The notes under the pieces are model-generated. The model made no database searches and was not told the origin of the DNA. It was given only the letters and a program-made list of their open reading frames with translations. Position numbers and translations under genes: made by a program. 31,126 bases of DNA from a virus. Its lineage: Duplodnaviria; Heunggongvirae; Uroviricota; Caudoviricetes. The stretch is from the IMG/VR virus record IMGVR_UViG_2874968258_000011; one strand, given 5' to 3'. Within the stretch, counting starts at the first letter, position 1. Each line of letters begins with the position of its first letter. Shown here piece after piece: positions 11,472-12,966 of this stretch.

Positions 11472-12542
11472 TGGAGCACCTGTGTTGTTCTGAGGTGAGC
11501 ATATCACCTCTGTTCAGGTGGCCAAATTCAGTGTGCCACTTCAGTACAGCATGAACCCTCAGACAGAAAACAAAGTGATGAGCGGCTAAAACTGGAGATT
11601 AAGGTGGCACATATCCGCACTCGCGAAACATATGGAACCCGGCGGCTCCAGACGGAGCTGGCAGAGAATGGCATCATCGTTGGTCGTGACCGACTGGCAC
11701 GTCTTCGTAAGGAGCTAAGGCTACGCTGTAAGCAGAAACGCAAGTTCAGAGCGACTACGAACTCGAACCACAATCTGCCAGTTGCGCCAAATCTGCTGAA
11801 CCAGACGTTCGCTCCTACAGCACCAAATCAGGTCTGGGTGGCGGACCTGACGTATGTTGCCACACAGGAGGGATGGTTGTACCTCGCTGGCATCAAAGAT
11901 GTTTATACGTGCGAAATTGTCGGCTACGCCATGGGAGAGCGCATGACAAAAGAGCTGACAGGTAAAGCCCTGTTTATGGCGCTCAGGAGCCAGCGCCCAC
12001 CTGCCGGGCTAATCCACCACTCTGATCGAGGTTCACAGTACTGCGCATACGATTACCGGGTCATACAGGAGCAGTCTGGTCTGAAAACATCAATGTCGCG
12101 TAAAGGTAACTGTTACGACAACGCTCCGATGGAAAGCTTCTGGGGAACGCTGAAAAATGAGAGCCTGAGCCACTATCGTTTTAATAACCGGGATGAAGCC
12201 ATCTCAGTAATACGGGAATACATTGAGATTTTCTACAATCGTCAGCGTCGTCACTCTCGTCTGGGGAATATCTCCCCGGCAGCCTTCAGGGAAAAATATC
12301 ATCAGATGGCTGCTTAAAAAAAGAACAAATGGTAGTGTCCGCTATTGCCAGTACACCTCACACTCTATCCAACAAACCACCCACAGTTAATCGGAATAAA
12401 AGCAGAGTGCTTATGAATGATCGCACGCCCGAAGGTTAGTATTTCTGCACAGCAATTTTGCAAAAAAAGGCGATCATTCATAACTTAAACGTCTTTCAGT
12501 CACTCCGGGATTTCCCATCATCGCAGACTGAAAGACTCTGAC

Positions 12543-12617
12543 TGGAGCGGGCAGCGGGAATCGAACCCGCATCATCAGCTTGGAAGGCTGAGGTAATAGC
12601 CATTATACGATGCCCGC
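12543..12617 (-). tRNA. tRNA-Gly (anticodon UCC), phage-type
   Basis: Manual fold: acceptor GCGGGCA/TGCCCGC, anticodon loop CTTCCAA, T-arm GCGGGTTCGATTCCCGC, encoded CCA. Confidence 0.8.
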
Positions 12618-12620
12618 ATA

Positions 12621-12696
12621 TGGTGCCGACTACCGGAATCGAACTGGTGACCTACTGATTACAAGTCAGTTGCTCTGCCTGCTGAGCTAAGTCGGC
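12621..12696 (-). tRNA. tRNA-Thr (anticodon UGU)
   Basis: Acceptor GCCGACT/AGTCGGC, anticodon loop CTTGTAA, T-loop TTCGATT, CCA. Confidence 0.8.
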
Positions 12697-12698
12697 GC

Positions 12699-12775
12699 TG
12701 GCCCACCACCGAGGACTCGAACCTCGCACCGTCAACTTAGAAGGTTGATGCTCTATCCGGATGAGCTAGTGGTGG
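12699..12775 (-). tRNA. tRNA-Arg (anticodon UCU); unusual C1:G72
   Basis: Acceptor CCACCAC/GTGGTGG, anticodon loop CTTCTAA, T-arm CGAGGTTCGAGTCCTCG, CCA. Confidence 0.75.
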
Positions 12776-12776
12776 T

Positions 12777-12853
12777 TGGTGGCCCTTGCTGGACTTGAAC
12801 CAGCGACCTGGCGATTATGAGTCGCTCGCTCTGACCAACTGAGCTAAAGGGCC
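12777..12853 (-). tRNA. tRNA with CAU anticodon, ileX-like (Ile2/lysidine type; elongator Met not excluded)
   Basis: GGCCCTTTAGCTCAG…GACTCATAATCGCC…GGTTCAAGTCCAGCAAGGGCCACCA. Confidence 0.75.
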
Positions 12854-12940
12854 GGAGGCAGAATAATAACCATATGTCATCACATCTGCAAACTCATCTG
12901 ACCACCAGCACGTTTAACGTCCTGTGCCGTTTTTCAGGTA

Positions 12941-12966
12941 TAAAAAAACCCGCATAAAGCGGGCTC
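12941..12966 (-). terminator. Intrinsic terminator between Q-like gene and tRNA cluster (candidate tR')
   Basis: Minus strand stem CCCGC, loop UUUAU, stem GCGGG, then U7. Confidence 0.55.

What the first reader, a model, noticed from the sequence alone, without database searches (positions are those of the whole stretch)
12361..12966. Four-gene phage tRNA array (CAU, UCU, UGU, UCC anticodons) packed between Q/terminator and the lysis cassette, followed by long hairpins
Four tRNAs lie head-to-tail with 1-3 nt spacers; all encode CCA. The Arg(UCU) gene has an unusual C1:G72 acceptor pair. Downstream of the last tRNA are two long inverted repeats (GTCTTTCAGTC/GACTGAAAGAC at 12491-12536; ATGAATGATCGC/GCGATCATTCAT at about 12412-12480). 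The anticodons read rare codons (AUA, AGA), which may support late-gene or toxin translation as in Stx-phage tRNA clusters.
Basis: partly seen in the sequence, partly recalled or inferred. Interest (0 to 1): 0.55.

Follow-up and report, generated by a model that had tools for sequence, protein, structure and literature searches.

The report
Prophage tRNA array with conserved RNA trailer
A decaying lambda-like prophage carries a well-known type of four-tRNA gene cluster, and the "hairpins" behind it are a conserved, unannotated structured RNA found behind such tRNA clusters in about a tenth of E. coli genomes.

Summary
Four intact tRNA genes lie on the minus strand at 12543-12853. They are Ile2(CAU), Arg(UCU), Thr(UGU) and Gly(UCC), with 1-3 nt spacers, encoded CCA ends, and C1:G72 in tRNA-Arg. 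They sit after a Q-type antiterminator gene and an intrinsic terminator.

This kind of array is known. Identical copies are annotated in RefSeq E. coli, and the first two tRNAs are homologous to the Stx-phage Ile-Arg pair. Gly is identical to host glyT, Thr is 74/76 identical to thrU, and the CAU tRNA matches ileX. The four cognate codons are 1.8-6.4 times enriched in a related phage.

The array has its own conserved promoter. A 2.5-kb nested IS600 insertion separates it from the holin gene.

The new part is the hairpins. They belong to a three-hairpin, roughly 180-nt RNA element (12361-12536). Its base pairs covary across enterobacterial prophages, and its G-U pairs fit only the sense strand. 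In relatives it is usually followed by a terminator. It has no Rfam match and no annotation.

It is most likely a stable 3' trailer RNA of an autonomous tRNA unit. Its function is unproven.

The parts
13043..13597 (-). Q-type late antiterminator gene. The mechanical ORF runs to 13717; RefSeq homologues are 184 aa.
   Evidence: Pfam DUF1133 at 3.8e-107 plus Phage_antitermQ at 1.7e-06. Homologues are annotated as a DUF1133 family protein directly upstream of the same array.
13025..13053 (-). Candidate late promoter (pR'-like), TTGCTT-17-TTCAAT, overlapping the Q stop codon. Inferred only.
   Evidence: Read. FDAARGOS_944 keeps the same TTGC[TA]T-17-TTCAAT layout although its upstream gene differs. 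The site falls below the consensus threshold of the scan.
12941..12970 (-). tR'-like intrinsic terminator (GAGCCCGC-TTTAT-GCGGGTTTTTTTA).
   Evidence: The sequence is. A 13-pair hairpin is predicted. It is identical in relatives.
12863..12892 (-). Dedicated sigma-70 promoter of the tRNA array (TTGCAG-17-TATTAT), ending 10 nt before tRNA-Ile2.
   Evidence: Promoter scan hit. The -35 and -10 hexamers and their spacing are conserved in otherwise unrelated upstream sequences of homologous arrays and in phage Nil2. A primary transcription start driving the tRNAs was mapped in an Stx2a phage (PMC7547250).
12777..12853 (-). tRNA-Ile2 (anticodon CAU, lysidine type, ileX-like).
   Evidence: It is 69/77 identical to K-12 ileX, with the anticodon loop and four of the five anticodon-stem pairs identical, C4:G69 and C5:G68 kept, and one compensatory acceptor-stem pair. 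PGAP annotates the identical sequence as tRNA-Ile.
12699..12775 (-). tRNA-Arg (UCU) with C1:G72 and G73, on the scaffold of the Nil2 Arg(UCG) gene.
   Evidence: 58/77 identical to argU. The same scaffold carries UCG in Nil2 and UUU in PhiR47_1 and PPompW.
12621..12696 (-). tRNA-Thr (UGU), thrU-like.
   Evidence: It is 74/76 identical to K-12 thrU, and the two differences are in the D-loop.
12543..12617 (-). tRNA-Gly (UCC), identical to host glyT.
   Evidence: It is 75/75 identical to K-12 glyT.
12491..12536 (-). Trailer hairpin H1: an 11-bp stem, a 2-bp extension and an inner GGG/CCC hairpin.
   Evidence: On alignment A3 (21 variants), 95.8% of cells are paired against 39-49% when the partners are slid, and 4 pairs show compensatory changes. 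H1 is optional in homologues.
12411..12483 (-). Trailer hairpin H2: a 14-bp outer stem enclosing two inner hairpins, one capped by a UUCG loop.
   Evidence: Helix 1 of alignment A2 has 14 pairs, 5 with compensatory changes, and 97.6% of cells paired.
12361..12409 (-). Trailer hairpin H3, containing the conserved GGGUGGUUUGUUGGAU segment.
   Evidence: In helices 4 and 5 of A2, 4 of the 8 outer pairs show compensatory changes, including three consecutive pairs that change together, in at least four stem variants.
9845..12360 (+). IS600 (orfA 9909-10211, orfB remnant 11604-12317), itself interrupted by a second IS3-family element (orfA and orfB on the minus strand, 10303-11507). The 3-bp target duplication GTG lies at 9842-9844 and 12361-12363.
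   Evidence: Pfam rve and HTH_Tnp_1 hits. Junctions were read. The uninterrupted sequence in relatives was aligned.
9797..9816 (-). Degenerate copy of the trailer's terminator (GCCCGCTTTTGCGTTTTTTT), now on the far side of the IS.
   Evidence: The sequence is. Most relatives carry the intact GCCCGCTTTTGCGGG[CT]TTTT 24 nt after H3.
8555..9731 (-). Lysis cassette: S21-type holin 9516-9731, lysozyme 9019-9516, Rz 8555-9034.
   Evidence: Pfam Phage_holin_2_1, Phage_lysozyme and Phage_lysis. The holin ATG was read.

Best explanation
The locus is an autonomous tRNA transcription unit of the moron type, embedded in the late-operon leader of a defective, IS-riddled lambdoid prophage. The unit runs in this order: its own sigma-70 promoter, four tRNA genes, a structured trailer of about 180 nt (H1-H2-H3), and an intrinsic terminator. 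What is shown: the tRNAs are intact; the CAU gene is an ileX-type tRNA-Ile2; the Thr and Gly genes are near-copies of host thrU and glyT; and the trailer's base pairs are conserved with compensatory changes that fit only the tRNA-sense strand. What is inferred: in a lysogen the unit is transcribed from its own promoter and stops at the terminator after the trailer, which keeps the holin gene silent. After induction, Q-modified RNA polymerase coming from pR' reads through tR', the array and that terminator into the lysis genes. RNase P cuts at each tRNA 5' end, and because the spacers are only 1-3 nt those cuts also nearly finish the preceding 3' ends. A cut just after the CCA of tRNA-Gly would release the trailer as a stable RNA of its own. 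The tRNAs would add decoding capacity for AUA, AGA, ACA and GGA, all of which are rare in host genes and enriched in the phage's genes. What the released trailer does is unknown; my best guess is a trans-acting or sponge-type small RNA. In this particular window, IS600 landed exactly at the 3' edge of H3. It cut the unit off from its terminator and from the lysis cassette, so here the arrangement is a remnant.
For: tRNA calls and scores come. The PGAP tRNA-Ile annotation on the 100% identical locus comes. The promoter was found and is conserved in unrelated upstream contexts. A transcription start for the tRNAs was mapped in an Stx2a phage (PMC7547250). Codon enrichment is 17.3 per 1000 in 37 K-12 genes against 38-40 per 1000 in PhiR47_1, with each of the four codons at odds ratio 1.8-6.4 and p<=3e-4. 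For trailer structure, the fold has z = -4.1. RNAalifold gives 41 pairs, 9 of them compensatory. In H2-H3, 97.9% of cells are paired against 32-50% when slid, and 68 double-change cells are observed against 24.8+-3.4 in shuffles. H1 is supported. The strand asymmetry is 153 G-U pairs against 8 A-C pairs. The element starts 0-6 nt after a tRNA 3' end in most copies. A terminator lies within 110 nt after H3 in 83 of 120 loci, and most of the rest are degenerate copies or IS cuts.
Against: No expression or processing data exist for this element. The covariation comes from a few lineages, mainly three or four stem variants, so the number of independent events is modest, and the shuffle control does not correct for relatedness. 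The invariance of TTTGCAAAATTGCTGTG and GGTTTGTTGG is partly built in by the search patterns used. Codon enrichment is equally strong in early genes, which would be translated before any Q-dependent boost, and it is correlation only. The pR'-like promoter is weak by consensus and was not picked up by the scan. In the window and in FDAARGOS_944 the downstream terminator is degenerate.
Confidence: 0.6

Rival explanations
1. The array is an anti-defence device. The phage tRNAs would replace host tRNAs destroyed by tRNA-cleaving defence nucleases, such as P2 Old acting on tRNA-Thr(UGU) or PARIS acting on tRNA-Lys(UUU), rather than compensating for codon usage. This can coexist with the main explanation.
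For: P2 Old blocks lambda by degrading host tRNA-Thr(UGU), and phage Thr(UGU) tRNAs rescue the cell (PMC12445682). PARIS AriB cleaves tRNA-Lys, and a T5 tRNA-Lys rescues infection (PMC11464382). These lambdoid arrays nearly always carry Thr(UGU). Their second tRNA sits on a scaffold unlike the host's (58/77 identical to argU), and its anticodon loop differs between otherwise similar arrays: UUU with C33, UCU, UCG, AAA/GAA, UUA and 6-nt loops.
Against: The window's tRNA-Thr keeps the host anticodon stem, including both CNG motifs and the full 5-bp stem that Old recognises, so it is not a resistant variant (one search compared). tRNA-Gly is identical to glyT. No nuclease is known that targets Ile2, Arg(UCU) or Gly(UCC) as a set. 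Some variants of the second tRNA look like decay rather than adaptation.
Confidence: 0.25
2. The trailer hairpins act only in cis. They would serve as a processing and stability module that protects the tRNA precursor from 3' exonucleases, guides maturation of tRNA-Gly, or assists termination. The released RNA would have no function of its own.
For: The element abuts a tRNA 3' end (0-6 nt) in most copies and is usually followed by a terminator. The modules are interchangeable: H1 is optional, H3 is missing in some copies, and one lineage has a different hairpin in place of H2. That pattern suits a loosely constrained structural role.
Against: Sequence conservation in unpaired or weakly paired segments is stronger than a purely structural role needs. 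Examples are the H3 GGGUGGUUUGUUGGAU segment and the H2 inner loop, which stays close to GCAAAAUUGCUG even in copies found with a different probe. Stx-phage arrays do without the element and go straight to a terminator. Some copies are not preceded by a tRNA at all.
Confidence: 0.3
3. The inverted repeats are DNA-level elements, such as a miniature transposon, an IS remnant, or a recombination or protein-binding site, and not RNA structure.
For: The arms are long and perfect (14/14 and 11/11), and they lie next to an IS600 end.
Against: The same sequence occurs without any IS in relatives. There is one copy in this window, and the 540 E. coli genomes that carry it hold a median of one. The orientation relative to the tRNAs is fixed. 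The pairing is strand-asymmetric, with 153 G-U pairs against 8 A-C pairs, so 97.9% of cells pair on the sense strand and 86.0% on the antisense strand. DNA symmetry would not produce that.
Confidence: 0.03
4. The region is a decayed pseudo-tRNA cluster, or the trailer encodes a small protein.
For: The prophage is heavily degraded by IS elements. A 38-codon ORF can be read through H2-H3 in the window. In FDAARGOS_943 the fourth tRNA has mutated to anticodon UAC and has a damaged 3' end.
Against: All four tRNAs in the window score 56-70 bits, and U8, A14, G18G19, U33, the T-loop and CCA are in place. They are 100% identical to those of FDAARGOS_944. The ORF is broken by changes in T-run length (6-9 T) among close relatives and stops after 10 codons in HK639.
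Confidence: 0.02

Closest known systems
Stx-phage tRNA cluster, known to me as ileZ-argN-argO (933W, Sakai Sp5). It was compared here through phage Nil2, whose record labels the genes only tRNA-Ile, tRNA-Arg (CGA) and tRNA-Arg (AGA).
   Same: The position is the same: after Q and tR', and before the late or lysis genes. The first tRNA (Ile, CAU) and the second tRNA (C1:G72 scaffold) are homologous at 88-90% identity. The TTGCA-17-TATTAT promoter lies just upstream in both, and a transcription start was mapped there in Sp5.
   Different: Here the second tRNA carries UCU instead of UCG. The third Stx-phage gene (Arg, UCU) is absent, and copies of host thrU and glyT take its place. No stx genes follow. 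The Stx arrays run straight into a terminator, whereas this one has the H1-H3 trailer first.
Host genes ileX, argU, thrU and glyT (E. coli K-12).
   Same: Identity is 75/75 for Gly, 74/76 for Thr, 69/77 for Ile2 and 58/77 for Arg(UCU), and the anticodons are the same.
   Different: In the host these genes are scattered, apart from thrU-tyrU-glyT-thrT, which form one operon. In the phage they are fused head to tail with 1-3 nt spacers. The host genes have no H1-H3 trailer.
3'ETS-leuZ, a trailer of the glyW-cysT-leuZ tRNA operon that acts as an sRNA sponge (from my own knowledge; not tested here).
   Same: Both are RNA segments lying directly 3' of the last tRNA of a polycistronic tRNA transcript and ending at the operon terminator.
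   Different: There is no sequence similarity and no Rfam hit. The phage trailer is much longer and more structured. No processing or partner data exist for it.
Stable RNAs C and D in the phage T4 tRNA gene cluster (from my own knowledge; not tested here).
   Same: Both are small structured RNAs of unknown function that are co-transcribed and co-processed with a phage tRNA cluster.
   Different: T4 is a virulent phage, and the sequences and architecture are unrelated. No homology was tested.
Short pR'-tR' transcripts (lambda 6S RNA, StxS) and other late-leader sRNAs such as STnc100.
   Same: All come from the same genomic neighbourhood. HK639 carries an isrJ-like pR'-tR' RNA below the family threshold (34.6 bits, threshold 37), then the tRNA and H1-H3 module, then STnc100 (52.6 bits). 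Each ends at a terminator.
   Different: H1-H3 lies downstream of tR' and matches none of these families.

Membership tests
tRNA (Rfam RF00005) | Cloverleaf covariance-model score above the gathering threshold, a canonical anticodon loop, and conserved D-loop and T-loop bases. | tested here: met
   Scores are 70.5, 56.4, 69.8 and 64.9 bits against a threshold of 29. ARAGORN reports four genes with 7-nt anticodon loops. U8, A14, G18G19, U33 and T54-C56 were read.
tRNA-Ile2 (lysidine-modified CAU, ileX/ileY type) | A CAU anticodon on an ileX-like body rather than a Met body, with the C4:G69 and C5:G68 acceptor pairs that TilS uses (this determinant is from my own knowledge). | tested here: met
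   It is 69/77 identical to ileX, with an identical anticodon loop, four of the five anticodon-stem pairs identical (the 27:43 pair is A-C here and G-U in ileX), and C4:G69 and C5:G68 present. PGAP names the identical gene tRNA-Ile.
tRNA-Ile2 (lysidine-modified CAU, ileX/ileY type) | C34 is actually modified to lysidine and the tRNA is charged with isoleucine. | not testable with these tools
   This needs mass spectrometry or acid-urea northern blots.
Lambdoid late-leader tRNA array (Stx-phage ileZ-argN-argO type) | Located between Q and tR' on one side and the late or lysis genes on the other, in the same orientation as the late operon. | tested here: met
   The order is Q gene 13043-13597, terminator 12941-12970, tRNAs, then the holin at 9731. 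Uninterrupted relatives show 110 nt between the trailer and the holin.
Lambdoid late-leader tRNA array (Stx-phage ileZ-argN-argO type) | Sequence homology of the member tRNAs. | tested here: met
   The Ile and second-position tRNAs are 88-90% identical to those of Stx and PPompW phages, and the alignment is. The third and fourth genes are not homologous to the third Stx-phage gene; they derive from thrU and glyT.
tRNA 3'-trailer (3'ETS) derived sRNA | Lies directly 3' of the last tRNA and inside the same transcription unit, ending at its terminator. | tested here: met
   H1 or H2 begins 0-6 nt after the CCA in most copies. A terminator lies within 110 nt after H3 in 83 of 120 loci.
tRNA 3'-trailer (3'ETS) derived sRNA | Released as a stable RNA that base-pairs with other RNAs. 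| not testable with these tools
   No transcriptome or interactome data were available. No paper holds the conserved motifs.
Any Rfam 15 family, for the H1-H3 trailer | A covariance-model match. | tested here: not met
   Nothing reached the gathering threshold. At E<=10 there were only chance-level hits: sR38 at 12 bits in the window, and istR, isrB and rsmX at 22-26 bits over H3 plus the terminator in HK639. L001 gave nothing on H1-H3.
Conserved structured RNA (general criterion) | Base pairs are maintained by compensatory substitutions, and the pairing is strand-specific. | tested here: met
   Nine of 41 pairs in H2-H3 and 4 of 17 in H1 show double changes, and 96-98% of cells are paired against 32-50% when slid. 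There are 153 G-U pairs against 8 A-C pairs. Caveats: few lineages contribute, and the alignment was seeded by conserved motifs.

The most novel reading that the evidence does not exclude
H1-H3 may be an undescribed family of phage-encoded regulatory RNA. It would be made by processing the 3' end of a prophage tRNA transcript and would be expressed constitutively in lysogens from the tRNA promoter. About 10% of complete E. coli genomes carry it, as do prophages of Shigella, Enterobacter, Phytobacter and Yokenella. It would act in trans, for example through Hfq or ProQ on host or phage RNAs by way of the conserved GGGUGGUUUGUUGGAU segment or the GCAAAAUUGCUG loop. A second novel reading also remains open: the variable anticodon of the second tRNA in these arrays could record an arms race with tRNA-cleaving defence nucleases.
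Probability: 0.3. Interest if true: 0.6.

Novelty: new member of a known kind. Interest (0 to 1): 0.4.

Why it matters
The tRNA array adds little, because such arrays have been known in Stx and other lambdoid phages for decades and this exact one is already annotated in RefSeq. Two side results could matter. First, a covarying RNA of about 125-180 nt sits behind these arrays in roughly one E. coli genome in ten, yet it is neither annotated nor in Rfam. If it is a stable RNA made in lysogens, it would be another prophage-borne regulator of host physiology, in the manner of StxS, AgvB and AsxR, and a second example of a tRNA trailer with a function of its own. Second, the arrays are built from host thrU and glyT copies plus a divergent tRNA whose anticodon changes between relatives. 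That makes them a convenient natural system for separating the codon-supply explanation of phage tRNAs from the anti-nuclease explanation.

Tried and rejected
1. I searched genome contigs for the exact H3/IS600 junction to name the source organism and found nothing. The junction does occur in three IMG/VR contigs (L131, L160, L210). The organism stays undetermined. It looks Shigella-like because of its IS1 and IS600 load.

2. Full-text searches for ileZ/argN/argO and for the conserved trailer motifs returned no papers. The HK639 search returned nothing about this region.

3. A small ORF through H2-H3 was rejected because of frameshifting T-run variation and an early stop in HK639.

4. The DNA-level repeat or MITE idea was rejected on strand asymmetry and copy number.

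5. I considered whether the trailer is the DLP12 sRNA IpeX or an HK022/HK639 put-type antiterminator RNA. The K-12 DLP12 layout differs, with nmpC between quuD and essD and no tRNAs, and HK639's record annotates only terminators in this region. Neither idea was tested by direct sequence comparison.

6. I considered that the Thr and Gly tRNAs are nuclease-resistant variants. That does not fit, because they are identical or nearly identical to the host genes, including the Old recognition motifs.

7. The promoter/terminator scan missed the obvious tR' hairpin and listed a promoter-like site inside tRNA-Thr and tRNA-Gly (12602-12629). I treat that site as chance.

8. I did not build a covariance model, because the motif-seeded collection already gave enough variants.
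Full report
**1. The observation**

ARAGORN finds four tRNA genes in the 31-kb window, all on the minus strand:
- Met/Ile(CAT) at 12777-12853
- Arg(TCT) at 12699-12775
- Thr(TGT) at 12621-12696
- Gly(TCC) at 12543-12617

Rfam's tRNA model scores them at 56-70 bits against a threshold of 29. The sequence shows spacers of 1, 2 and 3 nt and an encoded CCA on each gene. tRNA-Arg has C1 paired to G72 and discriminator G73.

Both inverted repeats are real. One has 11/11 complementary bases with a 24-nt loop. The 182 nt between tRNA-Gly and the next feature fold into three hairpins with z = -4.1, and none of 200 shuffles folds as well.

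**2. Surroundings**

Reading along the minus strand, the order is as follows:
- ORFs with Pfam DUF1367 and YbcO domains
- a Q-type antiterminator gene (DUF1133 plus Phage_antitermQ), ending at 13043
- a strong intrinsic terminator at 12941-12970
- 87 nt of spacer
- the four tRNAs
- the trailer

At 12360 the homology with relatives stops, and an IS600 end begins with TGAGGTGTACTGGC. IS600 is itself split by a second IS3-family element. The composite runs from 9845 to 12360 and is flanked by a 3-bp GTG duplication. Beyond it the original sequence resumes. It holds a degenerate terminator (9797-9816), the Shine-Dalgarno sequence and ATG of an S21-type holin (9731), then lysozyme and Rz.

In E. 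coli FDAARGOS_944 the region matches window 12361-12999 at 100% identity and is uninterrupted, with 110 nt between the trailer and the holin. PGAP annotates its four tRNAs as Ile, Arg, Thr and Gly.

The rest of the window is crowded with IS1, IS600 (about seven copies), and IS21-, IS630- and IS3-family elements. This is therefore a decaying prophage in an IS-rich, Shigella-like genome. The organism could not be named.

**3. The tRNAs**

Comparison with E. coli K-12 genes gave these results:
- Gly(UCC) is 75/75 identical to glyT.
- Thr(UGU) is 74/76 identical to thrU. Both differences are in the D-loop.
- The CAU tRNA is 69/77 identical to ileX. The anticodon loop and four of the five anticodon-stem pairs are identical, C4:G69 and C5:G68 are retained, and one acceptor pair has changed compensatorily. 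It is a tRNA-Ile2 that should read AUA after lysidine modification, not a Met tRNA.
- Arg(UCU) is only 58/77 identical to argU.

The C1:G72 scaffold of tRNA-Arg is shared with the Nil2 gene annotated as Arg reading CGA (anticodon UCG), and with genes called Lys(UUU) in PhiR47_1 and the PPompW prophages. C1:G72 is therefore a lineage trait and not an oddity of this gene.

Across 114 homologous loci the second tRNA is the variable one. UUU is commonest, and it comes with C33. UCU, as in this window, occurs in about ten loci. AAA or GAA, UUA and 6-nt loops also occur.

**4. Expression signals**

A TTGCAG-17-TATTAT promoter ends 10 nt before tRNA-Ile2. The same hexamers, spacing and distance recur in homologous arrays whose upstream sequence is otherwise unrelated, and in Stx phage Nil2. 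[quoted passage not shown] The array therefore very probably has its own constitutive promoter, in addition to Q-dependent read-through.

**5. Codon usage**

AUA, AGA, ACA and GGA together make up 17.3 per 1000 codons in 37 K-12 housekeeping genes. In the early and late genes of the related phage PhiR47_1 they make up 38-40 per 1000. In the six phage genes flanking the array in this window they make up 56.5 per 1000. Each codon is enriched 1.8-6.4 fold, with p<=3e-4. This fits codon supply but is only a correlation, and early genes are as enriched as late ones.

**6. The hairpins**

This is where the finding goes beyond what is known.

*Distribution.* The trailer occurs in 540 of 5426 complete E. 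coli genomes and carried no annotation in any of the 40 hits listed. Phage HK639 has a copy only 75% identical, sitting after a tRNA-Asn and half of a tRNA-Gly. Motif scans recovered copies in Shigella flexneri, Enterobacter hormaechei, Phytobacter and Yokenella, and in more than 120 IMG/VR contigs. These gave 47 distinct H2-H3 variants.

*H2-H3.* On a 30-sequence alignment, RNAalifold predicts 41 pairs, 9 of them with compensatory double changes. Of all cells, 97.9% are paired, against 32-50% when the partners are slid by 1-3 columns. Cells with changes on both sides number 68, against 24.8+-3.4 in shuffles. The outer stem of H3 exists in at least four mutually compensated versions: CUCU/AGAG, UCUC/GAGG or GAGA, CUCC/GGAG, and CCUU/AAGG.

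*H1.* H1 is supported in the same way: 17 pairs, 95.8% paired, and 4 compensatory pairs.

*Strand.* The pairing is strand-specific. There are 153 G-U pairs against 8 A-C pairs, so the structure belongs to the RNA made in the tRNA direction.

*Modularity.* H1 is optional, and then H2 starts right at the CCA. H3 is missing in a few copies. One lineage has a different hairpin in place of H2. A few copies are not preceded by a tRNA.

*Terminator.* A canonical terminator follows within 110 nt in 83 of 120 loci. Most of the others carry eroded copies of that terminator or an IS insertion.

*Rfam.* Rfam 15 has no matching family even at E<=10, and no paper in the library contains the conserved motifs.

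*ORF.* An apparent 38-codon ORF through H2-H3 is not conserved.

*Caveats.* The collection was seeded with conserved motifs, so their invariance is partly circular. The covariation also rests on a handful of lineages.

**7. Mechanism**

The best reading is an autonomous unit of promoter, tRNAs, trailer and terminator, inserted moron-style in the late leader. In lysogens it would be transcribed on its own and stop before the holin gene. After induction, Q-modified polymerase would read through it. RNase P and 3' trimming would free the tRNAs, and a cut after tRNA-Gly would free the trailer as a stable RNA. These steps are inferred.

HK639 shows the same logic repeated. Its late leader holds a weak, sub-threshold isrJ-like match over the pR'-tR' stretch, the tRNA and H1-H3 module, and STnc100, each closed by a terminator. 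In this window IS600 has cut the unit at the 3' edge of H3.

**8. Rivals**

- *Anti-defence supply.* P2 Old kills by cleaving tRNA-Thr(UGU), and phage Thr tRNAs rescue the cell (PMC12445682). PARIS cleaves tRNA-Lys (PMC11464382). The variable second tRNA fits an arms race. However, the Thr and Gly genes here are host-identical in the recognised regions, so they are not resistant variants.
- *Cis-only role.* A purely processing or stability role for the trailer cannot be excluded.
- *Rejected.* The DNA-repeat, small-ORF and pseudo-tRNA readings are rejected.

**9. Verdict**

The tRNA array is real, intact and of a known kind. The codon-supply idea is consistent with the data but unproven. The hairpins are part of a conserved structured RNA that is not in Rfam and carried no annotation in any record examined. 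This is the only part likely to interest a specialist. Its function is open.

Noticed in passing
window 12699-12775; loci L004, L226, L227 and the viral contigs L106-L225: The second tRNA of these arrays (C1:G72 scaffold) changes anticodon between otherwise similar arrays. UUU with an unusual C33 is commonest. UCU occurs here and UCG in Stx phage Nil2. AAA or GAA, UUA (an ochre-suppressor type) and 6-nt anticodon loops also occur. This could be diversification under selection or decay.
   Followed up: partly
L002 6660-6731 (E. coli FDAARGOS_943) and hits H3-H9: In several E. coli genomes the glyT-like fourth tRNA has become Val(UAC) through changes in the anticodon loop. It also has a 1-nt deletion in the 3' acceptor strand and CAA in place of CCA, so it is probably a dying gene.
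   Followed up: partly
window 12543-12696 compared with K-12 thrU-tyrU-glyT-thrT (L006): The phage Thr(UGU)-Gly(UCC) pair looks like a capture of the host thrU...glyT operon with tyrU and the spacer removed. Gly is 100% identical to glyT, which suggests recent capture or gene conversion.
   Followed up: partly
window 15829-16003 (-): A sok antitoxin RNA (Rfam RF01794, 118 bits), which implies a hok/sok-type toxin-antitoxin locus inside the prophage. The relatives annotate a Hok/Gef gene at the matching place.
   Followed up: no
window 27699-27775 (+) and 27800-27887 (+): An isrK Hfq-binding RNA (64.8 bits) and a C4 antisense RNA (79 bits) lie side by side, at the 5' end of and overlapping the mechanical ORF of an Ash/Rha-domain gene (27648-28493). 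This is a P1/P7-type immunity module.
   Followed up: no
window 9845-12360 and throughout: IS load is extreme. There are about seven IS600 copies (100-aa plus 272-aa ORF pairs at 2266-3422, 4794-5950, 19165-20321, 22034-23190, 29436-30592 and the split one). There are IS1 copies at about 1128-1850, 14845-15571 and 18361-19087, plus IS21-, IS630- and IS3-family elements. One IS600 carries another IS nested inside it.
   Followed up: partly
L003 (phage HK639) 2206-2411 and 2838-2910: HK639's late leader contains an STnc100 match above threshold (52.6 bits) and an isrJ-like pR'-tR' RNA (34.6 bits, just under threshold). Neither is annotated in the phage record. The leader is a string of terminator-bounded small-RNA modules.
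   Followed up: no
window 12454-12460 (T-run in H2); loci L001, L004, L031, L118, L133: The T-run at the 5' side of the inner H2 hairpin varies from 6 to 9 T among near-identical copies. It is a slippage-prone tract inside the conserved RNA.
   Followed up: no
window 9797-9816 and L001 about 7935-7955: The terminator that follows the trailer is eroded in the window and in FDAARGOS_944 (GCCCGCTTTTGCGTTTTTTT). Most relatives keep the perfect hairpin. In these strains the constitutive tRNA promoter might leak into the holin gene.
   Followed up: partly
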